From Escherichia coli (GTDB lineage Bacteria; Pseudomonadota; Gammaproteobacteria; Enterobacterales; Enterobacteriaceae): DNA of 64,000 bases. The notes beneath the pieces were generated by a model. The model searched no databases and had not been told where the DNA came from. It worked only from the letters and a program-made list of their open reading frames with translations. The translations under genes and the position numbers were made by a program. Of the stretch, positions 11,404 to 64,000 are shown one piece after another. The stretch lies in NCBI RefSeq assembly GCF_044647545.1, contig NZ_CP172818.1; one strand, given 5' to 3'. Position 1 is the first letter of the stretch. The number at the start of each line of letters is the position of its first letter.

Positions 11404-11406
11404 TAC

Positions 11407-15359: not shown

Positions 15360-15362
15360 AAG

Positions 15363-16305: not shown

Positions 16306-16309
16306 GATA

Positions 16310-18174: not shown

Positions 18175-18615
18175 ATGAAACGACTTCTGATTCTTACGGC
18201 ACTCCTGCCGTTTGTCGGCTTTGCACAGCCCATTAATACTCTGAATAACCCTAACCAGCCGGGGTATCAGATCCCCAGTCAGCAGCGGATGCAAACCCAA
18301 ATGCAAACGCAGCAAATCCAGCAAAAAGGGATGCTGAATCAGCAACTGAAAACGCAAACTCAGTTGCAACAACAGCATTTAGAAAACCAGATAAACAATA
18401 ATTCTCAGCGGGTGTTGCAGTCACAGCCGGGGGAGCGAAATCCCGCCCGGCAGCAAATGCTGCCCAACACCAATGGCGGGATGTTAAACGGCAACCGTAA
18501 TCCGGATAGTTCGTTGAATCAGCAGCATATGTTGCCGGAGAGGAGAAACGGCGACATGCTGAATCAACCCGGCACGCCGCAGCCTGATATACCGTTGAAA
18601 ACTATTGGGCCGTAA
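18175..18615 (+). CDS. yhhA: Gln-rich secreted protein YhhA
   Basis: ORF track 146 aa; signal peptide [17 protein letters not shown] followed by Q-rich low-complexity sequence. Confidence 0.85.
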
Positions 18616-19345: not shown

Positions 19346-20412
19346 ACTCGTTGTCCTGTTTCACCATCAAAAAGATGTAGCTGATTTTCCGGCAGATGCA
19401 GCCACAGCGTGCTGCCTGCCGTCGGGCGCTCCTGATGTGCCAGTCGCACCACCAGCTTCTGTTCGCCCCAGCGTCCGTGCGCCAGGTTATCTGCGCCGAG
19501 GATCTCCAGCGTGTCCATCACCAGCGGCACACCACCTTCTGCCTGCGAGCTTAGCGCTATATGTTCCGGGCGAATGCCGAGGGTCATTTTACGCCCGGCA
19601 TACTGACGGTAGCCACCGTTTAGCGGCAGCGTAATACAACCATCCAGTTCGAAATGCGTACCTTCGTTATTCACGCGACCTGCCAGCAGGTTCATCGCCG
19701 GGCTGCCGATAAAACTCGCTACAAACAGGCTGGCGGGCTTTTCGTAGACTTCCACTGGCGTGCCAATCTGTTCGGCAACGCCGCCGTTCATCACCATTAC
19801 TCGCTGGGCGAGCGTCATCGCCTCAACCTGATCGTGAGTAACGTAGAGTGAAGTCGTTTTCAGGCGACGGTGCAGTTGTTGCAGTTCAAGACGCATCTGC
19901 ACACGCAGCTTGGCATCGAGGTTAGAGAGCGGCTCATCAAACAGGAACACTGCCGGCTCACGCACAATCGCACGCCCCATCGCCACACGCTGACGCTGAC
20001 CGCCAGATAGCTCACGCGGGCGGCGCTTAAGCAGGCCGTCCAGCTCCAGAATGCGCGCCGCTTCTTTAACACGTTCGGCAATTTGTTGCTTGCCCATGCC
20101 GCGAATTTTCAGCCCCCACGCCATGTTCTCCTCTACGCTCATATGCGGATAGAGCGCGTAGTTCTGAAACACCATCGCAATCCCGCGATCTTTCGGCTCC
20201 ATTTCGGTGACACGCTTGCGGTCGATCCAGATATCGCCCGTCGTTACCCGCTCCAGTCCGGCCACCATTCGCAATAACGTCGATTTCCCGCAGCCAGACG
20301 GCCCGACCATCACGATAAATTCGCCATCCGCCACATCAAGGGTCAGCGGTTTAATGACCTGGGTTTTGCCATCCCAGCTTTTGGTTACTGCCTGTAATTT
20401 CAGTCCTGCCAT
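19342..20412 (-). CDS. ugpC: sn-glycerol-3-phosphate ABC transporter ATPase UgpC
   Basis: ORF track 19342..20451; start placed at [13 protein letters not shown] (356 aa); Walker [10 protein letters not shown], signature LSGGQRQR. Confidence 0.92.
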
Positions 20413-20413
20413 C

Positions 20414-21259
20414 TTATTTCTCACTATCGACCAGGCCGCGCACGAAGGCACGCTGCATCACTAAAACAATCACTACTGGTGGGATCAGCGTTAACAACAT
20501 CGCCGCCATCACCGAGTTCCATTCCGTGGTGCCTTCGCCAGTGGCGATCATCCCTTTAATCCCTGCCACGGTGGTGCCGAGATCAACGTCGGTAATAATC
20601 AACAACGGCCACAAATACTGGTTCCAGCCGTAAATAAAGGTGATCACAAACAGCGCCGCCAGATTAGTTTTGGACAGCGGAAAAACGATGTCGCAAAAGA
20701 AACGCATTGGTGACGCGCCGTCGATCCGCGCGGCTTCCACCAGCTCATCCGGCAGCGTCATAAAGAACTGGCGGAACAGGAAGGTGGCGGTCGCCGAGGC
20801 CATCAGCGGCAGCGTTAAGCCGGCGTAGCTGTCGAGCATCTTCAGATTGGCGATGACTTCCACCGTCGGGAAGATACGCACTTCAACCGGCAGCATCAGG
20901 GTGATAAAAATCATCCAGAAGAAGAGGTTACGTAGCGGAAAACGAAACCAGACAATGGCAAATGCCGAGAGCATCGAGACGGTAATTTTGCCGAGCGTAA
21001 TGCTGAACGCCATCACAAAGCTGTTAAGCAACATCCGCCAGAACGGCGCGCTATTCGTGCCTACCCCGTTCACCCAGATGTTGTGGATGTTTTCCAGCAG
21101 ATGTGTGCCGGGGATTAGCGTCATCGGTGCGGCATAGACTTCTTGTTTATCCAGCGTCGCCGCGACAAACGCCACGTACAGCGGGAAGAGGATCACCGCG
21201 ATCCCGAGGATCAGCATGGTATGGCTGAATATTGTCAGCCACGGACGGTTCTCAATCAT
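20414..21259 (-). CDS. ugpE: sn-glycerol-3-phosphate ABC transporter permease UgpE
   Basis: ORF track 281 aa, membrane protein; [22 protein letters not shown]. Confidence 0.92.
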
Positions 21260-22143
21260 TGGTAACGTACCTTGCTTTCAACATAGCGGAACTGCACCAC
21301 CGTCAGCACGATGACGAGGAACATCAACACCACCGACTGCGCGGCAGACGAAGCCAAATCCAGTCCGGTAAAGCCTTCACGGTAGATCTTATAAATCAGC
21401 GTCGTGGTGGCCTGTACTGGCCCGCCGGACGTGGCGGCGTCGATCACCGGGAAGGTGTCGAAGAAGGCGTACACCAGGTTCACCACCAGCAGGAAGAAAC
21501 TCACCGGAGCGATAAGCGGCAGCGCAATCTTAAAGAAGCGGCGAATCGGGCCTGCACCGTCGATGGCTGCGGCTTCGATCAACGAACGGGGAATGGATTG
21601 CAGCGCGGCATAGAAGAACAGAAAGTTGTAGCTAATTTGCTTCCACACCGAGGCAAACACCACCAGGAACATCGCCTGACCGCTGTTTTGTGCGTGGTTC
21701 CAGTCGTAGCCGAACTCAGCGAGAAAATGGGTGATCAGCCCGCGACCGGGGTTAAACAGAAAGATCCACAATACGGCGGCAACGGCGGGAGCCACGGCAT
21801 ACGGCAGCAGCATTAAGGTTTGATAGAAACGGCTGCCGCGCACGATGTACTCCACCAACGCCGCGAAGAACAGTGACACCAGCAAACCGCTGACGGTGAC
21901 AAAGGTGCTGAATTTTATCGTCGTCCAGAAGGAGTCGAGATAGTAGCTGTCATGAAACAGCGTGACGAAGTTATCCAGGCCGACAAACTGGCTGGAGAAA
22001 CCAAACGGATCGACGCTTTGTAGCGAGTACCACAACGCTTCGCCCGCAGGCCAGATAAAAAAGATAACGGTGATGATGAGCTGCGGCGCGACCAGCAAAT
22101 AAGGCAGCCAGCGCGAGCGGAACACCGGACGGGATGATGACAT
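21256..22143 (-). CDS. ugpA: sn-glycerol-3-phosphate ABC transporter permease UgpA
   Basis: ORF track 295 aa; [24 protein letters not shown]; overlaps ugpE start by 4 nt. Confidence 0.92.
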
Positions 22144-22164
22144 TACAGTTAATTCCTGAACTGT

Positions 22165-22232
22165 GCCGGATGCGCTTCGCTTATCCGGCCTACACGCGAT
22201 GCCAGGTCAGATAAGCGAAACGCATCCGACAT
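22165..22232. repeat. REP/BIME element (two inverted REP units) between ugpA and ugpB
   Basis: gccggatgcgcttcgcttatccggcctaca and gataagcgaaacgcatccgacatt match the REP consensus GCCGGATGCGGCGTAAACGCCTTATCCGGCCTAC. Confidence 0.8.
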
Positions 22233-22240
22233 TACACTGA

Positions 22241-23557
22241 TTAAGACTTCGTCGATTTCTCAAAGCGGCGCAGTAACTGATTCCCACGCTCAACGGCGGT
22301 ATCCAGCGCCTGCTGTGGCGTCTTCTTACCGGTCCACACGCTCTCCAGCTCTTCATCCACAATCACGCGGATCTGCGGCATGTTGCCCAGACGCAGCCCT
22401 TTGGTGAACGGCAACGGCGGCTTGTTCAGCATCTGACGCGTCGCGGTATCCGCCCCTGGGTTTTTCTCATAAAAGCCCTGCTCACGGGTCAGGTCATACG
22501 CCGCTTTGGTAATTGGCAGATAACCGGTTTTCTGATGCCACTCGGCAGCGTTTTCTGGCTTCGCGAGGAAGTCGAGAAACTTCGCCACGCCGGTATACGT
22601 TTCTTTATCTTTGCCCTGCATCACCCACAGGCTGGCTCCGCCGATAATGGCGTTTTGCGGCGCGTCTTTCGCATCGGCATCGTAAGGCATCATGCCTACG
22701 CCATAGTTAAATTTGGCGTACTCGCGAATGTTGGCAAGAGAACCGGAAGAGGCGGTCGTCATCGCGCAATCACCGTTATAGAACTTCTCGGTGGATTCAT
22801 CCTTACGCCCAACGTAGCTGAAATCGCCCTTCTTGTTCATCTCTTCGAGCATGGCGATGTGTTTCACCTGCTCCGGCTTGTTGAACTCAAGCACCGCGTC
22901 TGTGCCGTCAAAGCCGTTGTTTTTGCTGGCAAACGGCAAACCGTTCCAGGCGCTAAAGTTTTCCAGTTGGATCCATCCCTGCCAGCCGCTGGCGTAGCCG
23001 CACTTCATACCGGAGGCTTTCAGTTTTGCGGCATAGTCCGCCAGATCCTGCCAGGTTTTTGGCGGCTGTTCCGGGTCTAATCCTGCTTTCTTGAAGGCGT
23101 CTTTGTTGTAATAGAGAACGGGAGTCGAGCTGTTGAACGGCTGGGAGAGTAAGTGGCCGGTTTTGCTGTCGGAGTAATAGCCTGAAACCGTCGGCACAAA
23201 CTGCGACTCATCGAATTGAATCCCCGCCTCTTTAAACACGTCATACACCGGTTTAATGGCTTTCGACGCCATCATGGTGGCGGTGCCAACTTCATAAACC
23301 TGCAAAATAGCCGGAGCGTTGCCGGTACGAAATGCGGCAATCCCCGCGCTTAAATTCTGTTCGTAGTTGCCTTTATAGGTCGGTACAATTTTGTAATCCG
23401 GGTTTTCGGCGTTAAAACGTTGGGCCAGAGAATCCACCTCTTTGCCCAGTTCCCCTTCCATAGAATGCCAGAACGGAATGGTCGTCACTGCCTGCGCATT
23501 TGCCATTAAAGCCAGTCCGAGCGCCAGTGCTGAAGCTGTATAACGTAACGGTTTCAT
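22241..23557 (-). CDS. ugpB: sn-glycerol-3-phosphate periplasmic binding protein UgpB
   Basis: ORF track 438 aa; signal peptide [23 protein letters not shown]. Confidence 0.93.
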
Positions 23558-23675
23558 TGATTATCTCTCTTGTTGTACCGAATGCGCGAATTCACGCGTT
23601 TTATGCTCGCGGGGTAACATGACATGCTCGAATTACAGAAAAATAACTATTTTGTTACATTTTTAAGATAGTAAG

Positions 23676-23693
23676 GTGTCAGAAAGATGACAA
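23676..23693 (-). promoter_or_regulatory. Candidate Pho box (PhoB site) in ugpB promoter
   Basis: Minus strand reads TTGTCATCTTTCTGACAC, two 7-bp repeats with a 4-bp spacer resembling CTGTCAT-N4-CTGTCAT; ugp is a known Pho-regulon operon. Confidence 0.5.
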
Positions 23694-23794
23694 GGCGGTG
23701 ACGGCGCGGGCGAGGGAAAATGGGAGATGGGGCACGGATAAGCGGGAAAAATAGAAGGTCTGAATCAAACTCTACAGATTGCTCATCGTTTCAT

Positions 23795-23894
<100 letters not shown>

Positions 23895-23954
23895 ATTTTA
23901 CATTTGTAACCTGTCTCAAAGGAGTCTTTTGACTCCTTATCAATCAACGTGTTA

Positions 23955-24668
23955 TTACCCGCCTAAATACGCACTTCTCACCGCTTCGTTCGCCAGCAGC
24001 GCATCGCCGGTATCGGAGAGCACCACATGACCGTTTTCCAGAACGTAGCCGCGATCAGCGAGCTTCAGCGCCTGGTTGGCGTTCTGCTCGACGAGGAAGA
24101 TGGTCATCCCCTGCTCGCGCAGCTGCTCGATGGTGTCGAAAATTTGCTGGATGATAATCGGCGCAAGACCGAGCGATGGCTCATCAAGCAACAATAAACG
24201 CGGGTTGCTCATCAGCGCGCGCCCAATCGCCAGCATCTGCTGCTCACCGCCGGACATGGTGCCCGCCCGCTGAACACGGCGTTCATGGAGACGCGGAAAC
24301 AGTTCATACACCCACTTTATGCGTTCCTGGAACTGGTCGCGTTCGGCAAAAAAGCCGCCCATCGCCAGGTTCTCTTCCACCGTCATCCGCGAGAAAACAC
24401 GACGCCCTTCCGGAACAATCGCCACCGCTTCGCGCATGATTTTCGCTGTCTGCCAGTCGGTAATGTCTTTATCATCAAACACAATTCGCCCACTGGTGGC
24501 GCGTGGGTCGCCGCATAACGTGCCGAGCAAGGTGGTTTTCCCCGCCCCGTTCGCGCCAATCAGCGTGACAATTTCGCCCTGATTGATATGCAGGCTCACC
24601 TCATGCAGCGCCTGGATTTTGCCGTAGTGGGCGCTGACTTTGTCAAAGGACAACATGACTTTTTCCAT
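23955..24668 (-). CDS. livF: Branched-chain amino acid ABC transporter ATPase LivF
   Basis: ORF track 23955..24680; start placed at MEKVMLSFDKVSAHYGKIQAL (237 aa); Walker A GANGAGKTT. Confidence 0.92.
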   Translation of the reverse strand: MEKVMLSFDKVSAHYGKIQALHEVSLHINQGEIVTLIGANGAGKTTLLGTLCGDPRATSGRIVFDDKDITDWQTAKIMREAVAIVPEGRRVFSRMTVEENLAMGGFFAERDQFQERIKWVYELFPRLHERRVQRAGTMSGGEQQMLAIGRALMSNPRLLLLDEPSLGLAPIIIQQIFDTIEQLREQGMTIFLVEQNANQALKLADRGYVLENGHVVLSDTGDALLANEAVRSAYLGG

Positions 24669-47411: not shown

Positions 47412-50235
<2,824 letters not shown>

Positions 50236-50278
50236 CTATTAAAATTAAGTTCGTACGTCTGTAAAAAAGGATTTTACG

Positions 50279-53200
50279 ATGAGCGGAAAACCGGCGGCGC
50301 GTCAGGGCGACATGACGCAGTATGGCGGTAGCATTGTTCAGGGTTCTGCCGGGGTGCGTATTGGTGCCCCCACCGGCGTGGCCTGTTCAGTGTGCCCCGG
50401 CGGGGTGACGTCCGGTCATCCGGTCAATCCGCTGCTGGGTGCAAAGGTCCTTCCCGGCGAAACCGACCTTGCCCTGCCCGCCCCGCTGCCGTTCATCCTC
50501 TCCCGCACCTACAGCAGTTACCGGACAAAAACGTCCGCGCCGGTGGGGAGCCTCGGCCCCGGCTGGAAAATGCCTGCGGATATCCGCTTACAGCTGCGCG
50601 ATAACACACTGATACTCAGTGATAACGGCGGCAGAAGCCTGTATTTTGAGCACCTGTTTCCCGGTGAGGACGGTTACAGCCGCAGCGAGTCACTCTGGCT
50701 GGTGCGCGGCGGCGTGGCGAAACTGGATGAAGGTCACCGGCTGGCCGCACTCTGGCAGGCGCTGCCGGAAGAGCTTCGCCTGAGTCCGCATCGTTATCTG
50801 GCGACGAACAGTCCACAGGGGCCGTGGTGGGTACTCGGCTGGTGTGAGCGGGTGCCGGAGGCGGATGAGGTGCTGCCTGCGCCGCTGCCGCCGTACCGGG
50901 TACTGACCGGGCTGGTGGACCGCTTCGGGCGCACACAGACGCTCCACCGCGAAGCCGCCGGTGAATTCAGCGGCGAAATCACCGGCGTGACGGATGGTGC
51001 CGGGCGTCACTTCCGGCTGGTACTGACCACGCAGGCGCTGCGGGCAGAAGAGGCCCGGCAGCAGGCCATTTCCGGCGGGACGGAACCGTCCGCTTTTCCT
51101 GATACCCTGCCGGGTTACACCGAATATGGCCGGGACAACGGTATCCGCCTGTCCGCCGTGTGGCTGACGCACGACCCGGAATATCCGGAGAATTTACCTG
51201 CCGCGCCGCTGGTGCGCTATGGCTGGACGCCACGCGGCGAACTGGCGGTGGTGTATGACCGCAGCAATACACAGGTGCGCAGCTTTACTTACGATGATAA
51301 ATACCGGGGCCGGATGGTGGCGCACCGTCACACGGGCCGGCCGGAAATCCGTTACCGTTACGACAGTGACGGGCGGGTGACAGAACAGCTAAACCCGGCA
51401 GGCTTAAGCTACACCTATCTGTTATGAGCAAAACCGCATCACCATCACCGACAGCCTGAACCGCCGTGAAGTCCTGCATACGCAGGCGAAGGCGGCCTGA
51501 AGCGGGTGGTGAAAAAGGAACACGCGGACGGCAGCGTCACGCAGAGTCAGTTTGACGCGGTGGGCAGGCTTAAGACACAGACGGATGCCGCAGGCCGGAC
51601 AACAGAATACAGCCCGGATGTGGTGACGGGCCTCATCACGCGCATCACCACGCCGGATGGCAGGGCATCGGCGTTTTACTATAACCACCACAGCCAGTTA
51701 ACGTCAGCCACCGGGCCTGACGGGCTGGAAATACGCCGGGAATATGATGAATCCGGCCGTCTGATTCAGGAAACCGCCCCTGACGGCGATATCACCCGCT
51801 ACCGTTATGATAATCCACACAGTGACTTCCCCTGCGCAACGGAAGATGCCACCGGCAGCCGGAAAACCATGACGTGGAGCCGTTACGGTCAGTTGCTGAG
51901 CTTCACCGACTGTTCCGGCTACCAGACCCGTTATGACCATGACCGCTTCGGGCAGATGACGGCGGTGCACCGCGAGGAAGGCCTGAGCCAGTGCCGCGCA
52001 TACGACAGCCGTGGACAGTTAATTGCCGTGAAAGACACGCAGGGCCATGAAACGCGGTATGAATACAACATCGCCGGTGACCTGACCGCCGTCATTGCCC
52101 CGGACGGCAGCAGAAACGGGACACAGTACGATGCGTGGGGAAAGGCCATCCGTACCACGCAGGGCGGGCTGACCCGCAGTATGGAATACGATGCTGCAGG
52201 ACGGGTCATCCGCCTGACAAACGAAAACGGCAGCCACACCACCTTCCGTTACGATGTACTCGACCGGCTGATACAGGAAACCGGCTTTGACGGCCGCACA
52301 CAGCGTTACCACCACGACCTGACCGGCAAACTTATCCGCAGCGAGGATGAGGGGCTGGTCACCCACTGGCACTATGACGAAGCAGACCGCATCACGCAGC
52401 GAACGGTGAATGGTGAAACCGCAGAACAGTGGCGGTACGACGAACGCGGCTGGCTGACACAAATCAGCCATCTCAGCGAAGGGCACCGGGTGACGGTGCA
52501 TTACGGGTATGATGAGAAAGGCCGCCTGACCGGTGAGCGCCAGACGGTGCATCATCCGCAGACGGAAGCACTGCTCTGGCAGCATGAGACCAGACATGCG
52601 TACAACGCGCAGGGGCTGGCGAACCGCTGTATACCGGACAACCTGCCCGCCGTGGAATGGCTGACTTATGGCAGTGGTTACCTGGCAGGGATGAAACTCG
52701 GCGACACACCGCTGGTGGAGTACACCCGCGACCGCCTGCACCGGGAAACGCTGCGCAGCTTCGGCCGTTATGAACTCACCACCGCTTATACCCCTGCCGG
52801 GCAGTTACAGAGCCAGCACCTGAACAGCCTGCAGTATGACCGCGATTACACCTGGAACGACAACGGCGAACTCATTCGCATCAGCAGCCCGCGCCAGACC
52901 CGGAGTTACAGCTACAGCGACTCCGGCAGGCTGACCGGCGTTCACACCACCGCAGCGAACCTGGATATCCGCATCCCGTATGCCACGGACCCGGCAGGTA
53001 ACCGCCTGCCCGACCCGGAGCTGCACCCGGACAGCACCCTCAGCATGTGGCCGGATAACCGTATCGCCCGTGACGCGCACTATCTTTACCGGTATGACCG
53101 TCACGGCAGGCTGACGGAGAAAACCGACCTCATCCCGGAAGGGGTTATCCGCACGGATGATGAGCGGACTCACCGGTACCATTACGACAGCCGGCACCGG

Positions 53201-54514
53201 CTGGTGCACTACACGCGGACACAATATGCAGAGCCGCTGGTCGAAAGTCGCTATCTTTACGACCCGCTGGGCCGCAGGGTGGCAAAACGGGTGTGGCGGC
53301 GTGAACGGGACCTGACGGGCTGGATGTCGCTGTCACGGAAACCGGAAGTGACCTGGTACGGCTGGGACGGCGACCGCCTGACCACGATACAGAACGACAG
53401 AACCCGCATCCAGACGGTTTATCAGCCGGGGAGCTTCACACCACTCATCAGGGTCGAAACCGCCACCGGTGAGCAGGCGAAAACGCAGCGCCGCAGCCTG
53501 GCGGATGCGCTTCAGCAGTCCGGCGGCGAAGACGGTGGCAGTGTGGTGTTCCCGCCGGTGCTGGTGCAGATGCTCGACCGGCTGGAAAGTGAAATCCTTA
53601 CTGACCGGGTGAGTGAGGAAAGCCGCCGCTGGCTGGCATCGTGCGGCCTGACGGTGGCGCAGATGCAAAACCAGATGGACCCGGTGTACACGCCGGCGAG
53701 AAAAATCCACCTGTACCACTGCGACCATCGCGGCCTGCCGCTGGCGCTTGTCAGCACGGAAGGGGCAACAGAATGGTGCGCAGAATACGATGAGTGGGGC
53801 AACCTGCTGAATGAAGAGAACCCGCACCAGCTGCAACAGCTTATCCGCCTGCCGGGTCAGCAGTATGATGAGGAGTCAGGCCTGTATTACAACCGCCACC
53901 GCTATTATGACCCGCTGCAGGGGCGGTATATCACTCAGGATCCGATTGGGCTGAAGGGGGGATGGAACCTGTATGGATATCAATTGAATCCGATATCAGA
54001 CATCGACCCCCTGGGTTTATCTATGTGGGAGGATGCAAAATCGGGGGCATGTACTAATGGTCTTTGCGGCACACTATCCGCTATGATAGGTCCAGATAAG
54101 TTTGATTCTATAGATAGCACCGCATATGACGCCTTAAATAAAATAAATAGCCAATCTATTTGCGAAGATAAAGAGTTCGCTGGTTTAATATGTAAGGATA
54201 ATAGTGGCAGATATTTCTCAACAGCACCTAACCGAGGGGAAAGAAAAGGATCATATCCATTCAATAGCCCTTGCCCTAATGGTACTGAGAAAGTATCAGC
54301 TTATCATACTCATGGTGCAGATAGTCATGGAGAATATTGGGACGAAATATTTTCAGGCAAAGATGAGAAAATAGTTAAAAGTAAAGATAACAATATCAAG
54401 TCATTTTATTTGGGCACGCCCAGTGGTAATTTTAAAGCAATAGATAACCACGGGAAGGAAATAACAAACGGAAAAGGATTACCTAATGTCTGCAGAGTTC
54501 ATGGTAATATGTAA
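50279..54514 (+). pseudogene. rhsB: Rhs core protein RhsB with C-terminal toxin tip; interrupted by an in-frame TGA at 51425-51427, frame resumes downstream (ORF track segments 50279..51427 and 51506..54514)
   Basis: N-terminus MSGKPAARQGDMTQYGGSIVQGSAGVRIGAPTGVACSVCPGG; YD-repeat core; core-tip boundary motif DPIGLKGGW near 53940; both segments in the same frame, total 1412 codons as for intact RhsB. The break could be a real disruption or sequence error. Confidence 0.8.
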
Positions 54515-54869
54515 AAAAATATTTTTTAGGAACTGTGTCATTGTATCTTTGTTTGTTTTTACATACAACACATGGGCGCAGTGTAATAATAATATTAAAA
54601 TAATGCGCAAGTATGAAAGTGAGGGTAAATATACCGTTAGAAATTTGGTTAAAAATAAAGCTATAGCATTGGAATTAGCTGAGATATATGTTAAGAATCG
54701 TTATGGGCAGGATGCCGCAGAAGAAGAAAAACCATATAAAATCACTGAGTTAACAACAAGTTGGGTTGTTGAAGGCACCATTCACTCAGACCAAATTGCT
54801 GGTGGGGTTTTTATTATAGAAATAGGCAAAAATGATGGGGTAATTCTGAATTTTGGCCACGGAAAATAA
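54486..54869 (+). CDS. yhhH: Probable Rhs immunity protein YhhH, overlapping the 3-prime end of rhsB
   Basis: ORF track 127 aa; start lies 29 nt inside the rhsB tip, the usual toxin-immunity arrangement; AT-rich like the tip. Confidence 0.75.
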
Positions 54870-54958
54870 GTATGTAAGGATAATCAAACATCGTGTGCGC
54901 TGATGGCAGAGTAGGTGGAGGACTCCAGACAGTCAAACGATAAAAAAAGATAGCCTTT

Positions 54959-55357
54959 ATGGAGGCTCCTGCAATGTCAAATACATACCAGAAAAGAAAG
55001 GCAAGTAAAGAGTATGGTTTATATAATCAATGTAAGAAACTAAATGATGATGAATTATTTCGCTTACTTGATGATCACAATTCCTTGAAAAGGATTTCAT
55101 CTGCCAGAGTATTACAGTTAAGAGGTGGGCAAGACGCTGTTAGATTGGTAATTGAGTTCTGCTCTGATAAAAATTATATCCGTAGAGATATCGGAGCATT
55201 TATACTCGGGCAAATAAAAATTTGCAAAAAATGCGAAGATAATGTGTTTAATATTTTGAACAATATGGCATTGAATGATAAGAGCGCTTGCGTTCGAGCT
55301 ACGGCAATCGAGTCAACGGCCAGGGAAAGATCATCAAAAGTACACTTTTTGTACTAA
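54959..55357 (+). CDS. Short HEAT-repeat-like protein, possibly a truncated YibA-like orphan remnant of an Rhs element
   Basis: ORF track 132 aa; AT-rich; real start may be the internal Met at 54974 (MSNTYQKRK). Resemblance to YibA is from memory, not a search. Confidence 0.45.
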   Translation: MEAPAMSNTYQKRKASKEYGLYNQCKKLNDDELFRLLDDHNSLKRISSARVLQLRGGQDAVRLVIEFCSDKNYIRRDIGAFILGQIKICKKCEDNVFNILNNMALNDKSACVRATAIESTARERSSKVHFLY

Positions 55358-55464
55358 ATAATTCGCATTTTATGTTTAAAAATTGAGATATTCCTCATTA
55401 CCTGAAGCTGTTTTTTATTGCTTATACATGATCAAATACTCCTTACATAATTAAGGAGAACAAA

Positions 55465-56601
55465 ATGGTACTTAAAAAATTGATGGAACATATTTCTATT
55501 ATCCCCGATTACAGACAAGCCTGGAAAGTGGAACATAAATTATCGGACATTCTACTGTTGACTATTTGTGCCGTTATTTCTGGTGCAGAAGGCTGGGAAG
55601 ATATAGAGGATTTTGGGGAAACACATCTCGATTTTTTGAAGCAATATGGTGATTTTGAAAATGGTATTCCTGTTCACGATACCATTGCCAGAGTTGTATC
55701 CTGTATCAGTCCTGCAAAATTTCACGAGTGCTTTATTAACTGGATGCGTGACTGCCATTCTTCAGATGATAAAGGCGTCATTGCAATTGATGGAAAAACG
55801 CTCCGGCACTCTTATGACAAGAGTCGCCGCAGGGGAGCGATTCATGTCATTAGTGCGTTCTCAACAATGCACAGTCTGGTCATCGGACAGATCAAGACAG
55901 ATGAGAAATCCAATGAGATTACAGCTATCCCAGAACTTCTTAACATGCTGGATATTAAAGGAAAAATCATCACAACTGATGCGATGGGTTGCCAGAAAGA
56001 TATTGCAGAGAAGATACAAAAACAGGGAGGTGATTATTTATTCGCTGTAAAAGGAAATCAGGGGCGGCTAAATAAAGCCTTTGAGGAAAAATTTCCACTG
56101 AAAGAATTAAATAATCCAGAGCATGACAGTTACGCAATGAGTGAAAAGAGTCACGGCAGAGAAGAAATCCGTCTTCACATTGTTTGCGATGTCCCTGATG
56201 AACTTATTGATTTCACGTTTGAATGGAAAGGTCTGAAGAAATTATGCGTGGCAGTCTCCTTTCGGTCAATAATAGCAGAACAAAAGAAAGAGCCAGAAAT
56301 GACGGTCAGATATTATATCAGTTCTGCTGATTTAACCGCAGAGAAGTTCGCCACAGCAATCCGAAACCACTGGCACGTGGAGAATAAGCTGCACTGGCGT
56401 CTGGACGTGGTAATGAATGAAGACGACTGCAAAATAAGAAGAGGAAATGCAGCAGAATTATTTTCAGGGATACGGCACATCGCTATTAATATTTTGACGA
56501 ATGATAAGGTATTCAAGGCAGGGTTAAGACGTAAGATGCGAAAAGCAGCCATGGACAGAAACTATCTGGCGTCAGTCCTTGCGGGGAGCGGGCTTTCGTA
56601 A
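55465..56601 (+). CDS. yhhI: H-repeat-associated (ISAs1-family) transposase-like protein YhhI
   Basis: ORF track 378 aa; [51 protein letters not shown] typical of H-rpt ORFs found at the distal end of Rhs elements. Confidence 0.88.
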
Positions 56602-56688
56602 TCTTTCCCTGATACAAAAAAAAAACAAGTTCAAAACTTTATCCGGCAATCAATATATACACACAATATGAAGTCAAGTTTCCCTTCC

Positions 56689-57813
56689 TTACGCCATTGT
56701 CCCAATCGTCTTCCTGAATCGCAGCAGTGCGATGGTGAAAAATGCGCCGCCAATTGCCATCAGCGTCAGGAACTGCGGCCAGACGATTTCGAATCCGGCA
56801 CCACGGTAGAGAATGGCCTGCGCGAGGCTAACAAAGTGTGTCGTCGGCATGGTCAGCATAATGTCCTGCACCATCTGCGGCATACTTTCGCGCGGCGTGG
56901 AGCCACCGGAAAGCATTTGCAGCGGCAGCAGCACCAGAATCACCAGCAGCCCCAGTTGCGGCATCGAACGCGCTATCGTCCCCATAAAAATGCCGATTGA
57001 CGTGGTGGCAAACAGACTCAGCGCCACGCCCAGCATAAACAGCGGGATCGAGCCTTCAATCGGTACGCCCAGCACGCCTTTCACCATCAGTACCAGCGAT
57101 AATCCCGACACCACCAGCACCACCAGCCCCATCGACCAGACCTTCGCCATCATGATCTCAAACGGCGTTATCGGCATCACCAGTAAGTGTTCCACCGTGC
57201 CGTGTTCACGCTCGCGGATCAGCGCCGATCCGGTCAACACAATCGCCAGCATGGTAATGTTGTTGATGATCGCCATCACCCCGCCAAACCACGCGGGATC
57301 GAGGTTCGGGTTAAAGCGCATCCGGGTTTCCAGCGATACCAACGGTTCGCTGTTATCACGGTAGCGCGCGACAAAGCTGTTCACTTCACCGTTGATAATA
57401 TTCTGGATATACCCGTTGCCGGTAAATGCCTGGCTCATGCGCGTGGCATCGACGTTCACCTGAATATCTGGCTGGCGCCCGGCGAGGACATCACGCTGAA
57501 AATTAGGCGGAATATTTATCGCAAAGGTATAACGCCCGGCGTCCAGCCCGGCATCCATCTCATCGGCGGTGATCATCTCCGGTGGCAAAAACCACGGGCG
57601 ATAGAAGCTGTTAACGATCCTGTTCGATAACTGCGATTGATCCATATCGGCAATGGCGATCGGCGCGAGGTTCAACGATCCTGGCGTAACGGTCGCTGAC
57701 GAATACACCGACACCGTAAACGAGAAGACAATCAGCGTCAGCATCGCTTTATCACCGAGCAAACTGCGCAACTCTTTGATACCCAGATTAAAAATATTGC
57801 GTAAATGGCGCAT
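56689..57813 (-). CDS. yhhJ: ABC-2-type transporter permease YhhJ
   Basis: ORF track 56689..57897; start placed at [18 protein letters not shown] preceded by AGGAGGG; tandem ATGATG start overlaps the rbbA stop (ATGA). Confidence 0.88.
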   Translation of the reverse strand: MRHLRNIFNLGIKELRSLLGDKAMLTLIVFSFTVSVYSSATVTPGSLNLAPIAIADMDQSQLSNRIVNSFYRPWFLPPEMITADEMDAGLDAGRYTFAINIPPNFQRDVLAGRQPDIQVNVDATRMSQAFTGNGYIQNIINGEVNSFVARYRDNSEPLVSLETRMRFNPNLDPAWFGGVMAIINNITMLAIVLTGSALIREREHGTVEHLLVMPITPFEIMMAKVWSMGLVVLVVSGLSLVLMVKGVLGVPIEGSIPLFMLGVALSLFATTSIGIFMGTIARSMPQLGLLVILVLLPLQMLSGGSTPRESMPQMVQDIMLTMPTTHFVSLAQAILYRGAGFEIVWPQFLTLMAIGGAFFTIALLRFRKTIGTMA

Positions 57814-60548
57814 CATCCCTCCTGTTTTTTCAGCAGCAGGATGCTTAAGCCCACCACCAGCGGGATGGCTATCAGCAACGGGATAAAAAGTTGCCACAAA
57901 TCAGTCAGATCCAGCGCCTTCGAGAACGTCCCGCGGGCGATAGTCAGAAAATGACTGGTCGGGTAAACCTCGCCGATCCAACGTCCTGGACCTTCCAGCG
58001 AAGCTACCGGATCGATCATCCCGGAAAACTGCGTCGCCGGAATCAACGTGATGATCGCAGTGCCAAAAATAGCGGCAATCTGGCTTTTCATAAAGGTGGA
58101 GATCAGCAGCCCCATTCCGGTGGCAATGATGATATACAGCAGCGCCGCCAGGGTGAGCGTCAGGAAACTGCCTTTATGCGGTACGCCAAACACAAACACC
58201 GACAGGCCGCAGAGCAGGAAAAAGTTCAGCATCCCCAGCGCGATGTATGGCAACTGTTTACCAAGCAAAAATTCACTACGCGTGGTGGGGGTCACGTAAA
58301 GGTTGATAATCGACCCAAGCTCTTTTTCCCGCACCACGCTAAGGGCGCTTAGCATTGACGGGATCATCATCAGCAGAAGCGGGATCACCGCCGGAACAAT
58401 CGCTGGCAGGCTTTTTACGTCCGGGTTATAGCGATAGCGCGTCTCAATGTTCATCAGCCCGCTTTGGCTGGCGGGTGTCGATTGTCGGCTCGCCACATCC
58501 TGAAGCCAACTCTGGTGCATTGCCTGCACGTAACCTTTTACCGTTTCGGCACGACTGGGCATCGCTCCGTCGATCCAGACGCCGAGTTCCACAGGCGTAC
58601 CACGCGCGATATCGCGCCCAAAATTGGGAGGGATCTCAATTGCCACCGTGATATCGCCCGCACGCATCCGACGATCCAGCTCGTCATAACTGGTGAGCGG
58701 CGGCTGTTCGATAAAGTAACGGGAACCGGAGAGATTGAGCGTCCACGCCTGGCTACTGACGGTCTGGTCGCGGTCGAGCACAGCAAAGCGCAGGTTTTCC
58801 ACATCCATACTGATGCCGTAACCCATTATCAGCATCAGGATCACCGTTCCCATCAGCGCCAGCGTCGAACGTACTGGATCGCGTCGCAGTTCCAGCGCTT
58901 CGCGGCGGCTGTAGCTAAACAGACGGCGCAGGCTAAATCCCTGACGCGGCGCGTGGGTGGTGTCGTGTACCACGGGCGGCGCTTCGGCTTCGTTGCTCTG
59001 CCCTGCCGCTTCCTGCAAATAGGCGATAAATGCCTCTTCCAGACTGGCGGCTCCGCGTTTCTCAACCAGTTCCTGCGGTGTACCGCTGGCAAGCACTTTT
59101 CCGGCGTGCATCAGTGAGATGCGGTCGCAACGTTCCGCTTCGTTCATAAAGTGGGTGGAGATGAAGATAGTCACTTTGTCCTGGCGCGAGAGATCGACCA
59201 TCAACTGCCAGAACATATCCCTCGCCACCGGATCGACACCAGAAGTAGGCTCATCGAGGATTAACATCTCCGGGCGATGAATCACCGCCACCGCCAGCGA
59301 AAGCCGCTGGCGAATGCCGAGCGGCAATGACTCCGGCAGAACATCTTCAACGTCGTTGAGCTTAAAACGCTCGCTCATTTCAGCCACTCGCGCGGGAATT
59401 TCCGCTTCCGGGATATGAAACAGACGAGCATGTAACTCCAGGTTTTGCCGCACGGTGAGTTCGTTATAGAGCGAAAACGCCTGCGACATATAGCCCACCC
59501 GACGGCGAGTATCGATATCTTTTGGATCAACCGGTTGCCCGAACAGCCACGCCTCACCTTCGCTGGCGGGCAGCAATCCGGTAAGCATTTTCATGGTGGT
59601 GGATTTACCGCAGCCGTTCGAACCAAGAAAACCAAAAATCTCCCCGCGTGGAATGCGGAAATTGACGTGATCAACGGCAACGAAGGAACCAAAACGCATG
59701 GTCAGATCGCGCGCTTCGATGGCAATCTCTGCGTTTTCAGGTTGATATGGTGGGATCACTACCGCCTGATGCGCCTGGCGTTGCGCTTGCGGTAACAGAT
59801 TTATAAATGCTTCTTCCAGCGTGGCGCTTTGCGTTTGCTGCCGCAGCTCTTCGGCGCTGCCAGTTGCCAGCACTTCTCCTGCATTCATCGCTACCAGCCA
59901 GTCGAAGCGTTCCGCCTCTTCCATATAGGCGGTGGCAACCAGCACGCTCATATTGCTCTGCCGCTGGCGAATACTGTCGATCAGATCCCAGAACTGGGCG
60001 CGGGAGAGCGGGTCAACCCCCGTTGTTGGCTCATCAAGAATCAACAGTTCCGGGTCGTGAATTAACGCACAGCACAGCCCAAGTTTTTGCTTCATCCCGC
60101 CGGAGAGTTTCCCTGCCGGGCGATCGCGAAACGGTGCTAACCCGGTGCTGGTCAGCAGCTCATTGATTCGCACTTCCCGCTCCGCTTTGTCGTGACCGAA
60201 CAGGCGAGCGAAAAAATCGACGTTTTCATACACCGACAAGGTGTGGTAGAGATTTTTGCCCAGCCCCTGCGGCATCCAGGCGATGCGCGGGCAGACGTCG
60301 CGGCGATGCTTCGGGTCGCGCATATCGCCGCCCAGCACGATCACATTGCCCTGCTCAATGACGCGGGCACCGGAAATCAATGACAATAAACTCGACTTCC
60401 CGACGCCATCCGGACCAATCAGCCCAACCATGCAGCGGGCCGGAATATCGAGAGTGATATTGTTCAGCGCAACGGTTTTTCCATAATGCTGGCTCACGCC
60501 CGCCAGTTGCGCGACAGGCGGGACGGGAACCAGTTCCAGATGCGTCAT
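57813..60548 (-). CDS. rbbA: Ribosome-associated ATPase RbbA (fused tandem ABC ATPase plus permease domain)
   Basis: ORF track 911 aa; two Walker A motifs GPDGVGKSS and GSNGCGKST; C-terminal ABC-2 membrane domain. Confidence 0.92.
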
Positions 60549-61612
60549 TGCGGCAACCTCACCGCCAGGTCTTCAGGCCACGGAAGTTCTTCATTCACCC
60601 GCACCCACGCTACGCCCGGCAAACCGGTTTTGACATATTCCAGATGCTGCTGGAGTAATTCCGGTGGGATACGCGCTTTGACACGGAACATCAGTTTCAG
60701 CCGTTCATCGCTGGTTTCGACGGTTTTTGGCGTGAACTGGGCGACGCTGGCGACAAAACTGATGGTCGCCGGAATACGCAGATCTGGCGCGGCATCGAGG
60801 ATCAGCCGGGCTTCACCGCCCAGTTTCAGCGTGCCCGCCTGTTCGGTTGGCAGGAAGAAGGTCATATAGACGTCGCTGAGATCGACCATATTCAGTACCC
60901 GACCACCTGCCGCCAGCACTTCGCCTGGCTCGGCAACCCGATACTGCACGCGTCCGTCACGCGGGGCTTTCAGTTCGCTGTCATCGATATCTGCGGCAAT
61001 GCGCCGTTCAGTGGCTTGCGCGGCTTCGACGCGAGTTTGCGCCTGAATGATATTGGTGCGTGCCGCCTCTATAGCGGCTTTAGAAGCAGAAACCTGGGCT
61101 TTTGCTGATTCCAGCGCAGCTCGGGCGCTCTCAGCGGCGGCGCGGTCGTCATCCAGCTGTTGCGCAGAAATTGCCCCCCGTTGGGCCAGTGAGCGGGAAC
61201 GCGTATGACGTTTTGCTACGGAGTCCAGTTCTGCCTGGCGTTGATTAACCAGCGACTGTGCGGCACGAGTTTCGCTTTGGCGTTGCTCCAGCAAAGCCTG
61301 CGCGGCGGCAACGGCACTTTGTGCTTCTTTGATTTGCGCGATGGCTTCCATTCGCTGTTCCTGCAACACGCGAGTATCCATCTTCGCCAGCACTTCACCT
61401 TCTCGAACAAACTGGCCTTCTTTCACCAGAATGGTGTCGATACGCCCGGCAATTTTGCTGGCGATATCCACTTCCGTCGCTTCAATGCGCCCATTACTGA
61501 CAGCAAAGCCTTCCGGCACACCTGCCGGGCGCAACAGCCACCACGCCACGATAGCGGCCACCGCCAGTAACCCGACAACCCACCACGCCAGATGGCGCTT
61601 ACTCTTATCCAT
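60545..61612 (-). CDS. yhiI: HlyD-family membrane fusion protein YhiI
   Basis: ORF track 355 aa; N-terminal TM anchor, long Ala/Gln-rich coiled coil, C-terminal beta domain; 4-nt overlap with rbbA. Confidence 0.9.
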
Positions 61613-61977
61613 AATCGACCCGCCATAATCCCTGTAAGCAAACGACGCGTGTTACAACTGCCGCCGAACGACGTTCAGCGGATTCTTCCATCCGGGATAA
61701 GAAGGAAACGGCAAATACGACCAGCGCGCAGAGCATTGAGCGCCAACGTGGAAGGCTTAGTGAAAACGGGTAGTAATGTTGTCATCATCAGCATTCCTGG
61801 CCGTAAATGAAACACGCATACTCATAAGTGTGATCTATAAAACTGGCTGACAAAACGGTATCCATCCTGTTGGATAGCGTTTCACGCCTGTTCAGTTGCA
61901 GGAACAGAGCATTCCTTATTACGTTTTATCAACAGTCTCAACCAGATAGTAACATTAATATTCATGTTGTCTATGGT

Positions 61978-63600
61978 TCAGAGCTGTAACATTGTGCGCC
62001 TTCTAATCAAAGGCATAAGTCCATTTTTGTTTTTTTCATGCTGGTAAGACTTCCAGGGAGTGGTTATCTCAGGCCCCGCACCAGGGTTAATTTGGCAATT
62101 ATGCATGCTGAACATTCTTCCAGCATGTTTACTGTCACGGGCGTTAAGACCTAAAACTGTCCCCGTTTCACCTATGCGTTCTCTCCCACCATTTCCGTTA
62201 TGTGCAACAACTTGATTTATACCTAACATTTGTGAGCATGCTAATAGTGCTTCAAGTTTAGGTCTGTAATCTGTCGAAACAGAAAAATAACGATTAAAGG
62301 ATCGACAAGAGATAGCCCGGCTAGTTTTAAACTTTTTACCATTAATTATAGTATGATGCTTTTTATTAATAATTGCCGCTAATTCGACCGGATCGAGAGC
62401 ATTGGTCATTTCATCAATAGAGACTGTTATCGGTCCTATAATGTAACGTTTTCGCTGATCATCAAAAGTTATCCCATGATGATTTGCCATTATTTTGTAT
62501 TTGGGGTCATAGAAACATACAGGATAATCTTTTATCCCGTCGTAGGTATCCTCATCAAGTGGTTTCATACGCGTGAAGTTCTGCATATAGTTACCATTGC
62601 AATTCGTTTCATGATTACCAGCTAATACATGAAAATTTTCATTGATACTCATTATGCGTTTTAACAAATCGATGATAAATTGATCGCCACAGATATTACT
62701 AAATCGATCGCCGGTTTGGTCTCCCAGAAACGTACATGGCGTCACTGCGCCTTTATTAATAACTAAATATGGCTGAATACTTTCTAAAACAACATCTCTT
62801 CTGTTCAGAATACTGATTATTGTATTAACATTAATGTCTAGTTCCTCATTAATGTTTTCCCTTAATAAAACATTGAGAACTTCATCTTCTATATTAAGCA
62901 ACTGGCTAAGAAAATTTACTCCTTCAGCCATAATTCCCAAATGTCCCGTTGCGAAAAGCGCGTACAAAACTGCACCGACTGAGCCATCGGTATCACCAAA
63001 ATAGGTTGGTCTGGTACTTGTGGGATCAACGGGTGAACAATTGGAGAAATAGATTCTGTCAGCGAACTGGGGTTTTATAATTGTTTCGAATTTAATATCA
63101 GATACATTATATTGCGATATTTTCCAGTCCCAGATGGGTTTGTACGACTCAGTAACTGCAACATCATTAGCATTATCATTTACTGTCATATTATTAAGTA
63201 AATAAACAATGCTGCACCAATTAATATCGGTATCATCAAGAGGGCAACCGTAATTTTTACTATTAATTGTCACAATAAACTGATAACTATTATTCCTACG
63301 TAGAATATGGGCACGCATGCCCGATAGCATACTATATTTTTCTGAATGATTCGTTTCTATGGTAAATGAAATTTTGTCATCTTGAAAAGATTGTTGGAAA
63401 CGTTCTATTTGCCAATCATCAATTTTTTCCACAACTTCACCGAGCATTGTCCTGGCAATACTTGATATATCATCACCTATACCATTTGCAATATACCCAA
63501 ACAGTTCTTTAGTGAAGTTAGTAACATGCTCTTGCACCATATCATTTGTTGCGATAGTCGTTATACTGTCGTTAGTGCCTGCCACAGTTCCAAGTTTCAT
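61978..63600 (-). CDS. yhiJ: Uncharacterised protein YhiJ (DUF4049 family)
   Basis: ORF track 540 aa; MKLGTVAGTNDSITTIATNDMVQEHV; AT-rich codon usage suggests horizontal origin. Confidence 0.85.
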   Translation of the reverse strand: MKLGTVAGTNDSITTIATNDMVQEHVTNFTKELFGYIANGIGDDISSIARTMLGEVVEKIDDWQIERFQQSFQDDKISFTIETNHSEKYSMLSGMRAHILRRNNSYQFIVTINSKNYGCPLDDTDINWCSIVYLLNNMTVNDNANDVAVTESYKPIWDWKISQYNVSDIKFETIIKPQFADRIYFSNCSPVDPTSTRPTYFGDTDGSVGAVLYALFATGHLGIMAEGVNFLSQLLNIEDEVLNVLLRENINEELDINVNTIISILNRRDVVLESIQPYLVINKGAVTPCTFLGDQTGDRFSNICGDQFIIDLLKRIMSINENFHVLAGNHETNCNGNYMQNFTRMKPLDEDTYDGIKDYPVCFYDPKYKIMANHHGITFDDQRKRYIIGPITVSIDEMTNALDPVELAAIINKKHHTIINGKKFKTSRAISCRSFNRYFSVSTDYRPKLEALLACSQMLGINQVVAHNGNGGRERIGETGTVLGLNARDSKHAGRMFSMHNCQINPGAGPEITTPWKSYQHEKNKNGLMPLIRRRTMLQL

Positions 63601-63872
63601 CTTTTACCTCATATAATTCACCGCAAGGAATACATAGTTATCATTTAATCTTATGACATACACCTCATGTTCGACGGGAAAATAATTATATTTTGCACAA
63701 ATCATTCAGCCTTAAAGCATAATATGAAATTTCTTATCTCATAGTAGAGAAAGTCCCTAAAGATTGTAGAGGCGTCATCAGTACATGCCTCTACAATCGA
63801 TTAAGAAAAACTATGAAATACTGGCAGGATTAAAAAGACATACCACAGCACTCATGGAGTTTTAATGTGGTT

Positions 63873-64000
63873 GAAAACAACTAAGCCCTGGGACACCTTT
63901 TTTATCACCACGTTCGTTAGGTGCTATCTTCCAGGAATTTAGCCCCATGATATAATTATCAATTTTTTGATGCTGATCTACCCCTAATCCATAATGGCCA
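63873..64000 (-). CDS. 3-prime end of an unidentified minus-strand CDS that continues beyond the window end
   Basis: Open frame on the minus strand from the window edge to TAA at 63873-63875, C-terminus ...NSWKIAPNERGDKKGVPGLSCFQPH; by K-12 synteny this could be the yhiJ paralog yhiL, unverified. Confidence 0.4.

What the first reader, a model, noticed from the sequence alone, without database searches (positions are those of the whole stretch)
51419..51490. rhsB interrupted: premature TGA, frame restored about 60 nt later
The Rhs core frame reads ...LSYTYLL then TGA at 51425-51427, yet the same frame resumes and continues to the normal C-terminus, total 1412 codons. Reading the short interval in the +1 frame gives [20 protein letters not shown], which is Rhs-like, so a 1-nt insertion near 51422 and a 1-nt deletion near 51485 are implied. 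Either the toxin gene is inactivated or these are two sequence errors.
Basis: partly seen in the sequence, partly recalled or inferred. Interest (0 to 1): 0.55.

Follow-up and report, generated by a model that had tools for sequence, protein, structure and literature searches.

The report
Frameshifted rhsB, probably an assembly error
The rhsB toxin gene in this E. coli sequence is broken by one extra base and one missing base 66 bases apart. This damage occurs in no other genome searched and sits in an assembly with other garbled patches, so it is more likely a sequencing or assembly error than biology, and an ordinary dead toxin gene if real.

Summary
The rhs reading frame (50279-54514, 1412 codons) stops at TGA 51425-27, and the same frame resumes afterwards. 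Alignment with intact alleles shows an extra T at 51418 and one G lost from the run at 51485-86. The 22 codons between them read normal Rhs sequence in the +1 frame. A second in-frame TGA lies at 51467-69.

Removing the T and restoring the G gives a 1411-aa protein identical to a catalogued E. coli RhsB.

The two indels, plus two adjacent synonymous substitutions (51479, 51496), are private to one NCBI assembly. They are absent from 5,426 complete E. coli genomes, 120 metagenome contigs and 128 aligned rhs copies.

The four changes fall within 79 nt (chance about 1e-5), 200-311 nt inside a 2.5-kb repeat shared by rhs paralogs. The +T site reads as a hybrid of the two natural haplotypes.

The same window holds four garbled patches at island borders (9877-10060, 15934-16277, 50214-50264, 56612-56663), in a backbone otherwise identical to ST648-type genomes apart from 13 substitutions beside two of the patches.

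Best reading: a consensus or assembly artefact (about 0.65). Rival: a real, strain-private rhsB pseudogene with its immunity gene kept (about 0.3). Programmed recoding is rejected. Low interest.

The parts
50279..54514 (+). rhsB coding region as deposited (1412 codons including the terminal stop; interrupted). The repaired product is a 1411-aa RhsB with DUF6531, YD-shell/RHS repeats, RHS core and a DUF4329 C-terminal domain.
   Evidence: The exact repaired protein is P0031, named 'rhs element protein RhsB'. Its Pfam families are listed.
51416..51419 (+). Site of the +1 insertion. The window reads TATC where ST648-type rhs reads TAC (extra T at 51418). TATC is the K-12-type spelling of the neighbouring codons, so the site reads as a hybrid of two natural haplotypes.
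   Evidence: Alignments; allele table.
51425..51427 (+). First premature in-frame stop (TGA), ending the 382-aa N-terminal fragment.
51419..51486 (+). Out-of-frame interval (22 codons). In the +1 frame it encodes [22 protein letters not shown], identical to intact Rhs.
51467..51469 (+). Second in-frame stop (TGA) inside the shifted interval.
   Evidence: read against the sequence.
51485..51486 (+). Site of the -1 deletion. The window has GG where all other copies have GGG (CAGGGCGAA).
51479..51496 (+). Two private substitutions flanking the deletion (C->T at 51479, G->C at 51496). Both are at third codon positions and synonymous in the repaired frame. Neither occurs in any other copy examined.
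   Evidence: Codon positions follow from the sequence read in the repaired frame; itself computed codon positions only for 51157 and 51385.
51157..51385 (+). Two isolated single-site switches (51157 C, 51385 A) to the K-12-type allele; 51157 C is also the allele of the ST648-type yibF-locus paralog. At 117 of 119 sites that tell the two haplotypes apart, the window has the ST648 rpmE-locus allele.
51185..53698 (+). Rhs core segment that is identical between the two rhs paralogs of ST648-type genomes (a 2.5-kb exact repeat). The damaged patch lies 200-311 nt inside its left edge.
51506..54514 (+). Downstream 1002-aa ORF (GTG start) carrying most of the Rhs shell, the PxxxxDPxGL motif ([11 protein letters not shown]) and the C-terminal toxin domain. 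It lacks the N-terminal delivery region.
54486..54869 (+). yhhH, the cognate immunity-type gene (Imm-NTF2-2). It is intact and overlaps the rhsB 3' end.
   Evidence: (P0032, seen on at least 1000 contigs).
54959..55357 (+). Truncated yibA-like HEAT-repeat fragment, cut by ISAs1 at about 55323, as in other rhsB islands.
55320..56611 (+). ISAs1/ISEc1 element (H-repeat). Its yhhI transposase ORF, 55465-56601, is intact (378 aa).
50214..50264 (+). Left junction of the rhsB island. It matches no complete E. coli genome and is a degraded, shortened copy of the natural rhsB leader. It removes nikR's stop codon.
56612..56663 (+). Right junction of the island: an A10 run followed by a degraded copy of the yhhJ-proximal sequence of ST648-type genomes.

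Best explanation
The gene is rhsB, an Rhs-family polymorphic toxin. It has an N-terminal DUF6531 delivery region, a YD-repeat shell, a PxxxxDPxGL self-cleavage motif and a DUF4329 C-terminal toxin, and is followed by the immunity gene yhhH. The +T/-G pair that interrupts it is most likely not in the living strain. It is most likely a local consensus or assembly artefact. The rhs core is a multi-kilobase repeat shared by paralogs. In the deposited sequence the rhsB copy has been written almost entirely with the sequence of the strain's other rhs copies. A short stretch 200-311 nt inside the repeat was left as an imperfect blend. At a four-base polymorphism between two equal-length haplotypes (TAC TGT versus TAT CAG), an aligner can represent the difference as insertion + deletion + mismatch. 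If only some of those edits are applied, the result is exactly the observed TAT C TGT, one base too long. The nearby G-run undercall and two odd substitutions belong to the same low-fidelity patch. Shown: the indels, their uniqueness, their clustering, the hybrid spelling, and other garbled patches in the same window. Inferred: the polishing/assembly mechanism, and that the real gene is intact.
For: 1. Uniqueness. No complete E. coli genome among 5,426 carries this version (best 98.3%; 97.7-98.5% for the repaired patch). The +T 29-mer has 0 hits in metagenome contigs. All 120 metagenome contigs over the second site are intact. All 128 aligned copies lack both indels. Each ORF fragment exists on exactly one contig among about 15 billion proteins.
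2. Repair gives a known protein. Removing the T and adding the G gives a protein identical to a catalogued RhsB.
3. Clustering. Four private changes lie within 79 nt of a 5,059-nt alignment that is otherwise identical apart from the two allele switches at 51157 and 51385 (P about 1e-5).
4. No selective reason for the pairing. The second indel cannot have been selected as a functional compensation, because two stops lie in the shifted interval.
5. Position. The patch lies just inside a 2.5-kb exact inter-paralog repeat.
6. Mixed-haplotype signature. The +T site is a literal hybrid of the ST648-type and K-12-type spellings. 51157 and 51385 are isolated single-site switches to the K-12-type allele among 117/119 ST648-type alleles. 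That fine-scale mosaic is typical of mixed-read consensus, not of a conversion tract.
7. Other defects in the window. The backbone is otherwise identical to FDAARGOS_497 except for 13 substitutions next to two of the patches. The window nevertheless contains an A-rich stretch with an A30 run (9877-10060) and a 344-nt stretch of 84-91% GC with no E. coli match (15934-16277). Two island junctions are degraded copies of natural intergenic sequence, and the degraded yhgN-gntU copy breaks that region's terminator hairpin.
8. Related assembly. BS-01, whose RefSeq protein numbers are close to this genome's, shows a similar poly-A/noisy junction and frameshifted core genes.
Against: No reads were available, so the error is not shown directly. 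Base accuracy in about 57 kb of unique flank is essentially perfect, with no indels, so this is not a generally error-ridden consensus. The ISAs1 copy and the other 4.9 kb of the rhs element show no indels. All four substitutions in the patch are third-position and synonymous, which fits natural variation at least as well as random error. Three of the changes (C->T 51479, -G, G->C 51496) are not explained by mixing of the two haplotypes I could examine. rhs pseudogenes are common in E. coli (PMC2935791; frameshifted rhs fragments are annotated).
Confidence: 0.65

Rival explanations
1. The two indels are real, and rhsB is a recent, strain-private pseudogene. Translation stops after 382 residues, so the DUF6531 N-terminal region is made without the shell or toxin. 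The toxin cannot be loaded or delivered, while the immunity gene yhhH stays intact and still protects against kin. The clustered changes would come from one localized event, for example error-prone synthesis or patchy heteroduplex repair at the edge of a gene-conversion tract between rhs paralogs.
For: The sequence as deposited has two in-frame stops. The unique flanks of the same assembly are error-free. The substitutions in the patch are all synonymous third-position changes. The gene is visibly a product of exchange between paralogs: its 5' end is like the rpmE-locus copy and its 3' end like the yibF-locus copy. rhs pseudogenes and relics are widespread (PMC2935791). yhhH is intact.
Against: It is a singleton among thousands of genomes. 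A neutral second indel of opposite sign within 67 nt of the first has a chance of about 0.013 even given two indels in the gene. Equal-length heteroduplexes do not readily yield a net +1. The isolated single-site allele switches and the garbled patches elsewhere in the window point to a consensus problem.
Confidence: 0.3
2. The whole rhsB island is a mis-built region, for example mixed strains or repeat contigs stitched into the nikR-yhhJ gap. The frameshift patch would then be one of the stitch points, and the true sequence at this locus would be unknown. This is a stronger form of the artefact reading.
For: All complete genomes examined with this backbone carry hicAB, not rhsB, between nikR and yhhJ. 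The rhs ORF is assembled from two different ST648 paralogs at 100% identity. Both island junctions are noisy and unique. The three structural differences from ST648-type genomes all coincide with garbled sequence.
Against: The island has the natural rhsB-island architecture: a yibA fragment cut by ISAs1 at the usual point. Its ISAs1 copy is distinct (best 99.2-99.7%), with an intact transposase, so it is not a paste of a known paralog. No noise is seen at the core-to-tip boundary near 53699.
Confidence: 0.2
3. The interruption is bypassed by programmed recoding (a +1 shift near 51419 and a -1 shift near 51485), or the two ORFs work as a split toxin.
For: Only that the frame is restored after 66 nt and that the downstream ORF has a possible GTG start.
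Against: Recoding would need two different non-canonical shifts. No slippery heptamer (X XXY YYZ) or prfB-like site is present at either position (sequence). There is no conservation: 0 of 128 copies and 0 of 5,426 genomes share the arrangement. The downstream ORF lacks the N-terminal delivery region.
Confidence: 0.01

Closest known systems
E. coli rhsB element (nikR-rhsB-yhhH-yhhI-yhhJ), as in K-12 and O26:H11
   Same: Same chromosomal site, gene order and length (1411 aa once repaired). Same RhsB-type tip plus YhhH, and the same truncated yibA fragment and ISAs1.
   Different: The deposited copy carries a +T/-G pair and two in-frame stops. Its DNA is about 3% from K-12/O26-type rhsB, and instead identical, outside the 340-nt stretch 51157-51496, to the rpmE-locus (5') and yibF-locus (3') rhs copies of ST648-type strains. 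The upstream leader is shortened and degraded.
T6SS-associated Rhs polymorphic toxins with a YD-repeat cage (PMC8636562, PMC8765631; Rhs toxin/immunity pairs, PMC3150448)
   Same: The domain order is the same: N-terminal delivery region, YD shell, PxxxxDPxGL motif, variable C-terminal toxin, downstream immunity gene.
   Different: No secretion, autocleavage or toxicity was tested here. No T6SS genes lie in this window. The deposited reading frame is broken.
Consensus or polishing indels in repeated genes of bacterial assemblies (my own knowledge of assembly practice, not a curated family)
   Same: A singleton, net-zero indel pair inside a multi-copy repeat, a hybrid spelling at a multi-base polymorphism, and other low-fidelity patches at repeat or island borders in the same record.
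   Different: The sequencing platform and pipeline of the source assembly are unknown to me. Three of the changes are not explained by the haplotypes I could compare.
rhs pseudogenes and relics in Enterobacteriaceae (PMC2935791)
   Same: If real, this is a frameshift-inactivated rhs with its neighbouring genes kept.
   Different: Documented pseudogenes are usually shared by lineages or carry larger lesions. This one is private to one assembly and consists of two compensating single-base indels.

Membership tests
Rhs family polymorphic toxin (RhsB type) | N-terminal DUF6531 region followed by YD/RHS repeats forming the shell | tested here: met
   The exact repaired protein P0031 carries PF20148, PF25023, PF05593 and PF03527. 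NCBI names it 'rhs element protein RhsB'.
Rhs family polymorphic toxin (RhsB type) | PxxxxDPxGL motif marking the end of the core, followed by a variable C-terminal toxin domain | tested here: met
   [11 protein letters not shown] is present in the translation. The C-terminal domain hits PF14220, DUF4329.
Rhs family polymorphic toxin (RhsB type) | Cognate immunity gene immediately downstream | tested here: met
   yhhH, 54486-54869, is intact and has the Imm-NTF2-2 family. Immunity function itself was not tested.
Rhs family polymorphic toxin (RhsB type) | Uninterrupted reading frame giving a deliverable full-length protein | tested here: not met
   As deposited there are two in-frame TGA codons, at 51425 and 51467. 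The feature is met only after removing T51418 and restoring a G.
Rhs family polymorphic toxin (RhsB type) | T6SS-dependent delivery and toxicity | not testable with these tools
   No T6SS genes are in the window. This needs experiments.
Programmed ribosomal frameshifting / recoding | Slippery sequence at the shift site | tested here: not met
   No X XXY YYZ heptamer or prfB-like CUU UGA context at 51416-51427 or 51480-51490 (sequence).
Programmed ribosomal frameshifting / recoding | Conservation of the shifted arrangement among homologues | tested here: not met
   0 of 128 aligned copies, 0 of 5,426 complete genomes, and 0 metagenome hits for the +T 29-mer.
Functionally compensated frameshift pair | The shifted interval is open, so a full-length protein with a short altered segment is made | tested here: not met
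   The shifted interval contains two stops: [24 protein letters not shown].
Assembly / consensus artefact | Variant absent from the reads of the source strain | not testable with these tools
   Reads are not available. The support is indirect: singleton status, clustering, hybrid spelling, and garbled patches elsewhere.

The most novel reading that the evidence does not exclude
The indels are real and record a single localized multi-mutation event (two indels plus substitutions within 79 nt) made at the edge of a very recent gene-conversion tract between rhs paralogs. That would be a snapshot of recombination-associated mutagenesis killing a toxin gene while its immunity gene is kept.
Probability: 0.2. 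Interest if true: 0.3.

Novelty: not a real feature. Interest (0 to 1): 0.08.

Why it matters
It matters little for biology. If it is an error, the strain has an ordinary intact rhsB, and the practical lesson concerns data quality. This record has low-fidelity patches at repeats and island borders, so pseudogene calls there (rhsB, and the 7-codon extension of nikR) should not be used in analyses of toxin loss or gene decay. If it is real, it is one more strain-private rhs pseudogene with its immunity gene retained, a known pattern.

Tried and rejected
- The look-up of encoding contigs on the two ORF fragments returned nothing, so I could not name the source record or fetch sister copies.
- Looking for sister strains through the exact ISAs1 transposase found only copies at other loci.
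- The extended NikR is a singleton.
- The exact repaired RhsB exists, but on ST648-type draft contigs that join the rpmE flank to the yibF-locus flank. It is therefore not an independent nikR-locus allele.
- I looked for a donor haplotype carrying T51479 or C51496 in 5,426 genomes, 120 metagenome contigs and all fetched loci. None was found.
- A literature search for the 4,499,902-bp genome gave nothing.
- Rejected: two independent random sequencing errors, because the flanks have no indels in 57 kb.
- Rejected: programmed frameshifting, because there is no slippery site and no conservation.
- Rejected: a functional compensated frameshift, because of the stops in the interval.
- Rejected: simple contamination by BS-01, because the window's ISAs1 is only 97.5% identical to it.

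Full report
**1. What is in the sequence**

An ATG ORF runs from 50279 to TGA 51425-27 (382 aa, ending ...LSYTYLL). A second ORF in the same frame runs 51506-54514 (1002 aa). Translating 50279-54514 in one frame gives 1412 codons, counting the terminal stop, with two internal stops...[33 protein letters not shown].... In the +1 frame the interval reads [22 protein letters not shown].

Alignment with intact rhs genes shows one extra T at 51418 (TACACCTA[T]CTGT). It also shows one G missing from the run at 51485-86 (CAGGGCGAA -> CAGGCGAA). Undoing both changes gives an open 1411-aa frame.

**2. What the gene is**

The locus is nikABCDE-nikR | rhs - yhhH - yibA fragment - ISAs1 (yhhI) | yhhJ-rbbA. 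That is the rhsB island of K-12 and O26.

The repaired protein is letter-for-letter a catalogued 'rhs element protein RhsB' (P0031, UniRef n=14). Its Pfam families are DUF6531, TEN_YD-shell, RHS_repeat, RHS and DUF4329. The PxxxxDPxGL motif is present as [11 protein letters not shown]. The downstream yhhH is intact and of the Imm-NTF2-2 family. Rhs proteins of this build are polymorphic toxins paired with immunity genes (PMC3150448, PMC8636562, PMC8765631). rhs pseudogenes and relics are common in E. coli (PMC2935791).

**3. Where the window comes from**

The backbone is identical to ST648-type genomes such as FDAARGOS_497, WB61 and ST648:
- 1-3000, 10061-15933, 16598-50213 and 56664-64000 have no differences.
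- 2849-9876 has one mismatch (9870).
- 16278-16597 has 12 mismatches.

Every complete genome examined with this backbone has hicAB (about 0.8 kb), not rhsB, between nikR and yhhJ.

The rhs ORF is a mosaic of that lineage's own paralogs. Positions 50265-51184 carry the alleles of the rhs copy next to rpmE. Positions 51185-53698 are identical in both paralogs. Positions 53699-55323 (tip, yhhH, yibA fragment) are 100% identical to the yibF-locus copy.

Against that composite, the window differs at only six positions, all within 340 nt: 51157, 51385, +T 51418, 51479, -G 51485 and 51496.

Both ORF fragments, and a 140-aa NikR that has lost its stop codon, each occur on exactly one contig. It is an NCBI replicon of 4,499,902 bp. 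NikR and the ISAs1 transposase have consecutive RefSeq numbers (WP_400165080.1 and WP_400165081.1). I infer from this that the source genome was annotated with rhsB as a pseudogene.

**4. Is the damage shared?**

No.
- The best match among 5,426 complete E. coli genomes is 98.3%.
- Even the repaired 133-nt patch has no perfect match (98.5% at best).
- The 29-mer across the +T has no hit in the metagenome collection.
- A degenerate pattern across the second site found 120 contigs, all with GGG, C at 51479 and G at 51496.
- All 128 homologous copies held locally (29 haplotypes) differ from the window by exactly these two indels.

**5. Is it real or an artefact?**

Four private changes within 79 nt of a 5,059-nt alignment have a chance of about 1e-5. 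They are therefore not independent events. The second indel cannot have been selected as a compensation, because the shifted interval contains stops.

The patch lies 200-311 nt inside the left edge of the 2.5-kb inter-paralog repeat.

The +T site is a literal hybrid of the two natural, equal-length spellings:
- ST648-type: TAC ACC TAC TGT TAT GAG
- K-12-type: TAC ACG TAT CAG TAT GAG
- window: TAC ACC TAT C TGT TAT GAG

Positions 51157 and 51385 are isolated switches to the K-12-type allele. At 117 of the 119 sites that tell the haplotypes apart, the window keeps the ST648 allele. Single-site switches and a half-applied multi-base difference are what a consensus built from mixed reads (other paralogs or another strain) produces. 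This step is my inference.

The same window also has clearly unnatural sequence at every structural difference from ST648-type genomes:
- An A/C-only stretch with A12 and A30 runs, followed by a degraded copy of the natural yhgN-gntU terminator with its hairpin broken (9877-10060).
- 344 nt of 84-91% GC that replaces the end of yhhY and has no E. coli match (15934-16277).
- Degraded, unique junctions on both sides of the rhsB island (50214-50264 and 56612-56663).

BS-01, an assembly with nearby RefSeq protein numbers, shows a similar ISAs1-poly-A-noisy junction and frameshifted livH and rbbA.

Evidence the other way:
- The unique flanks have no indels.
- The ISAs1 copy and the rest of the rhs element are clean.
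- All four substitutions are synonymous third-position changes.
- Three of the changes are not explained by the haplotypes I could compare.
- rhs pseudogenes are common.

I put a consensus or assembly artefact at about 0.65 and a real strain-private pseudogene at about 0.3. A stronger form of the artefact reading, in which the whole island is mis-built, is included within the 0.65; I give that form about 0.2.

**6. Consequences under each reading**

If it is an artefact, the strain has an ordinary intact RhsB/YhhH pair. If it is real, translation ends after 382 residues. The shell and toxin are not made, or if restarted at GTG 51506 they lack the delivery region. Immunity is retained. This would be a familiar route of toxin loss.

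Programmed recoding is rejected. It would need two different shifts, there are no slippery sites, and there is no conservation.

**7. Verdict**

The most likely cause is a sequence-quality artefact. Nothing novel is implied either way. Interest is low.

Noticed in passing
window 9877-10060: An A-rich, almost G-free stretch (GC 10-15%) with A12 and A30 runs lies between yhgN and gntU. It is followed by a roughly 75%-identical, indel-ridden copy of the natural 56-nt intergenic terminator, with the hairpin broken. ST648-type genomes have a 3.4-kb dprA/recQ island at this site. It looks like assembly junk rather than E. coli DNA.
   Followed up: partly
window 15934-16277: A 344-nt stretch at 84-91% GC replaces the last 35 nt of yhhY and the spacer before ggt. 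It matches none of 5,426 complete E. coli genomes. K-12-like strains carry the yhhZ-yrhA-IS1-yrhB island at this site.
   Followed up: partly
window 16322-16597: Twelve substitutions, nearly all transitions, relative to FDAARGOS_497 are packed into 276 nt at the 3' end of ggt, right after the GC-rich stretch. The next 33 kb have none.
   Followed up: no
window 49813-50235: nikR has lost its TGA (GAT TGA -> GAT TGG) at the island junction and is extended by 7 codons, to 140 aa. This protein (WP_400165080.1) is found on one contig only.
   Followed up: partly
window 50214-56663: An rhsB island sits in an ST648-type backbone where every complete genome examined with that backbone has hicAB instead. 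The rhs ORF is a composite of that lineage's rpmE-locus (5') and yibF-locus (3') rhs copies. This is either recent gene conversion or a mis-built region.
   Followed up: partly
L127-L130 (draft ST648-type assemblies), 9629-24236: Contigs run priA-rpmE-rhs-yhhH-yibA-...-yibH-yibI-mtlA. They join the 5' flank of one rhs locus to the 3' flank of another that lies about 425 kb away in complete genomes. This is either repeat collapse in short-read assemblies or a real rhs-mediated rearrangement.
   Followed up: no
window 55465-56601: The ISAs1/ISEc1 transposase (yhhI) is intact here (378 aa). The copy at the same place is annotated as a pseudogene with an internal stop in O26:H11 11368 and BS-01. 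The best DNA matches are 99.2% (the ydcC copy of ST648-type genomes) and 99.7% (metagenome contigs).
   Followed up: partly
window 56612-56663 and L004 8150-8212 (strain BS-01): Only BS-01, among the complete genomes, shares the arrangement of ISAs1 end, then a poly-A run, then a noisy copy of CATCAATAGTATGACATCACAATATGAAG before yhhJ. BS-01 also has frameshifted livH and rbbA, and RefSeq protein numbers close to those of the window's genome. This suggests a common pipeline or sequencing batch.
   Followed up: partly
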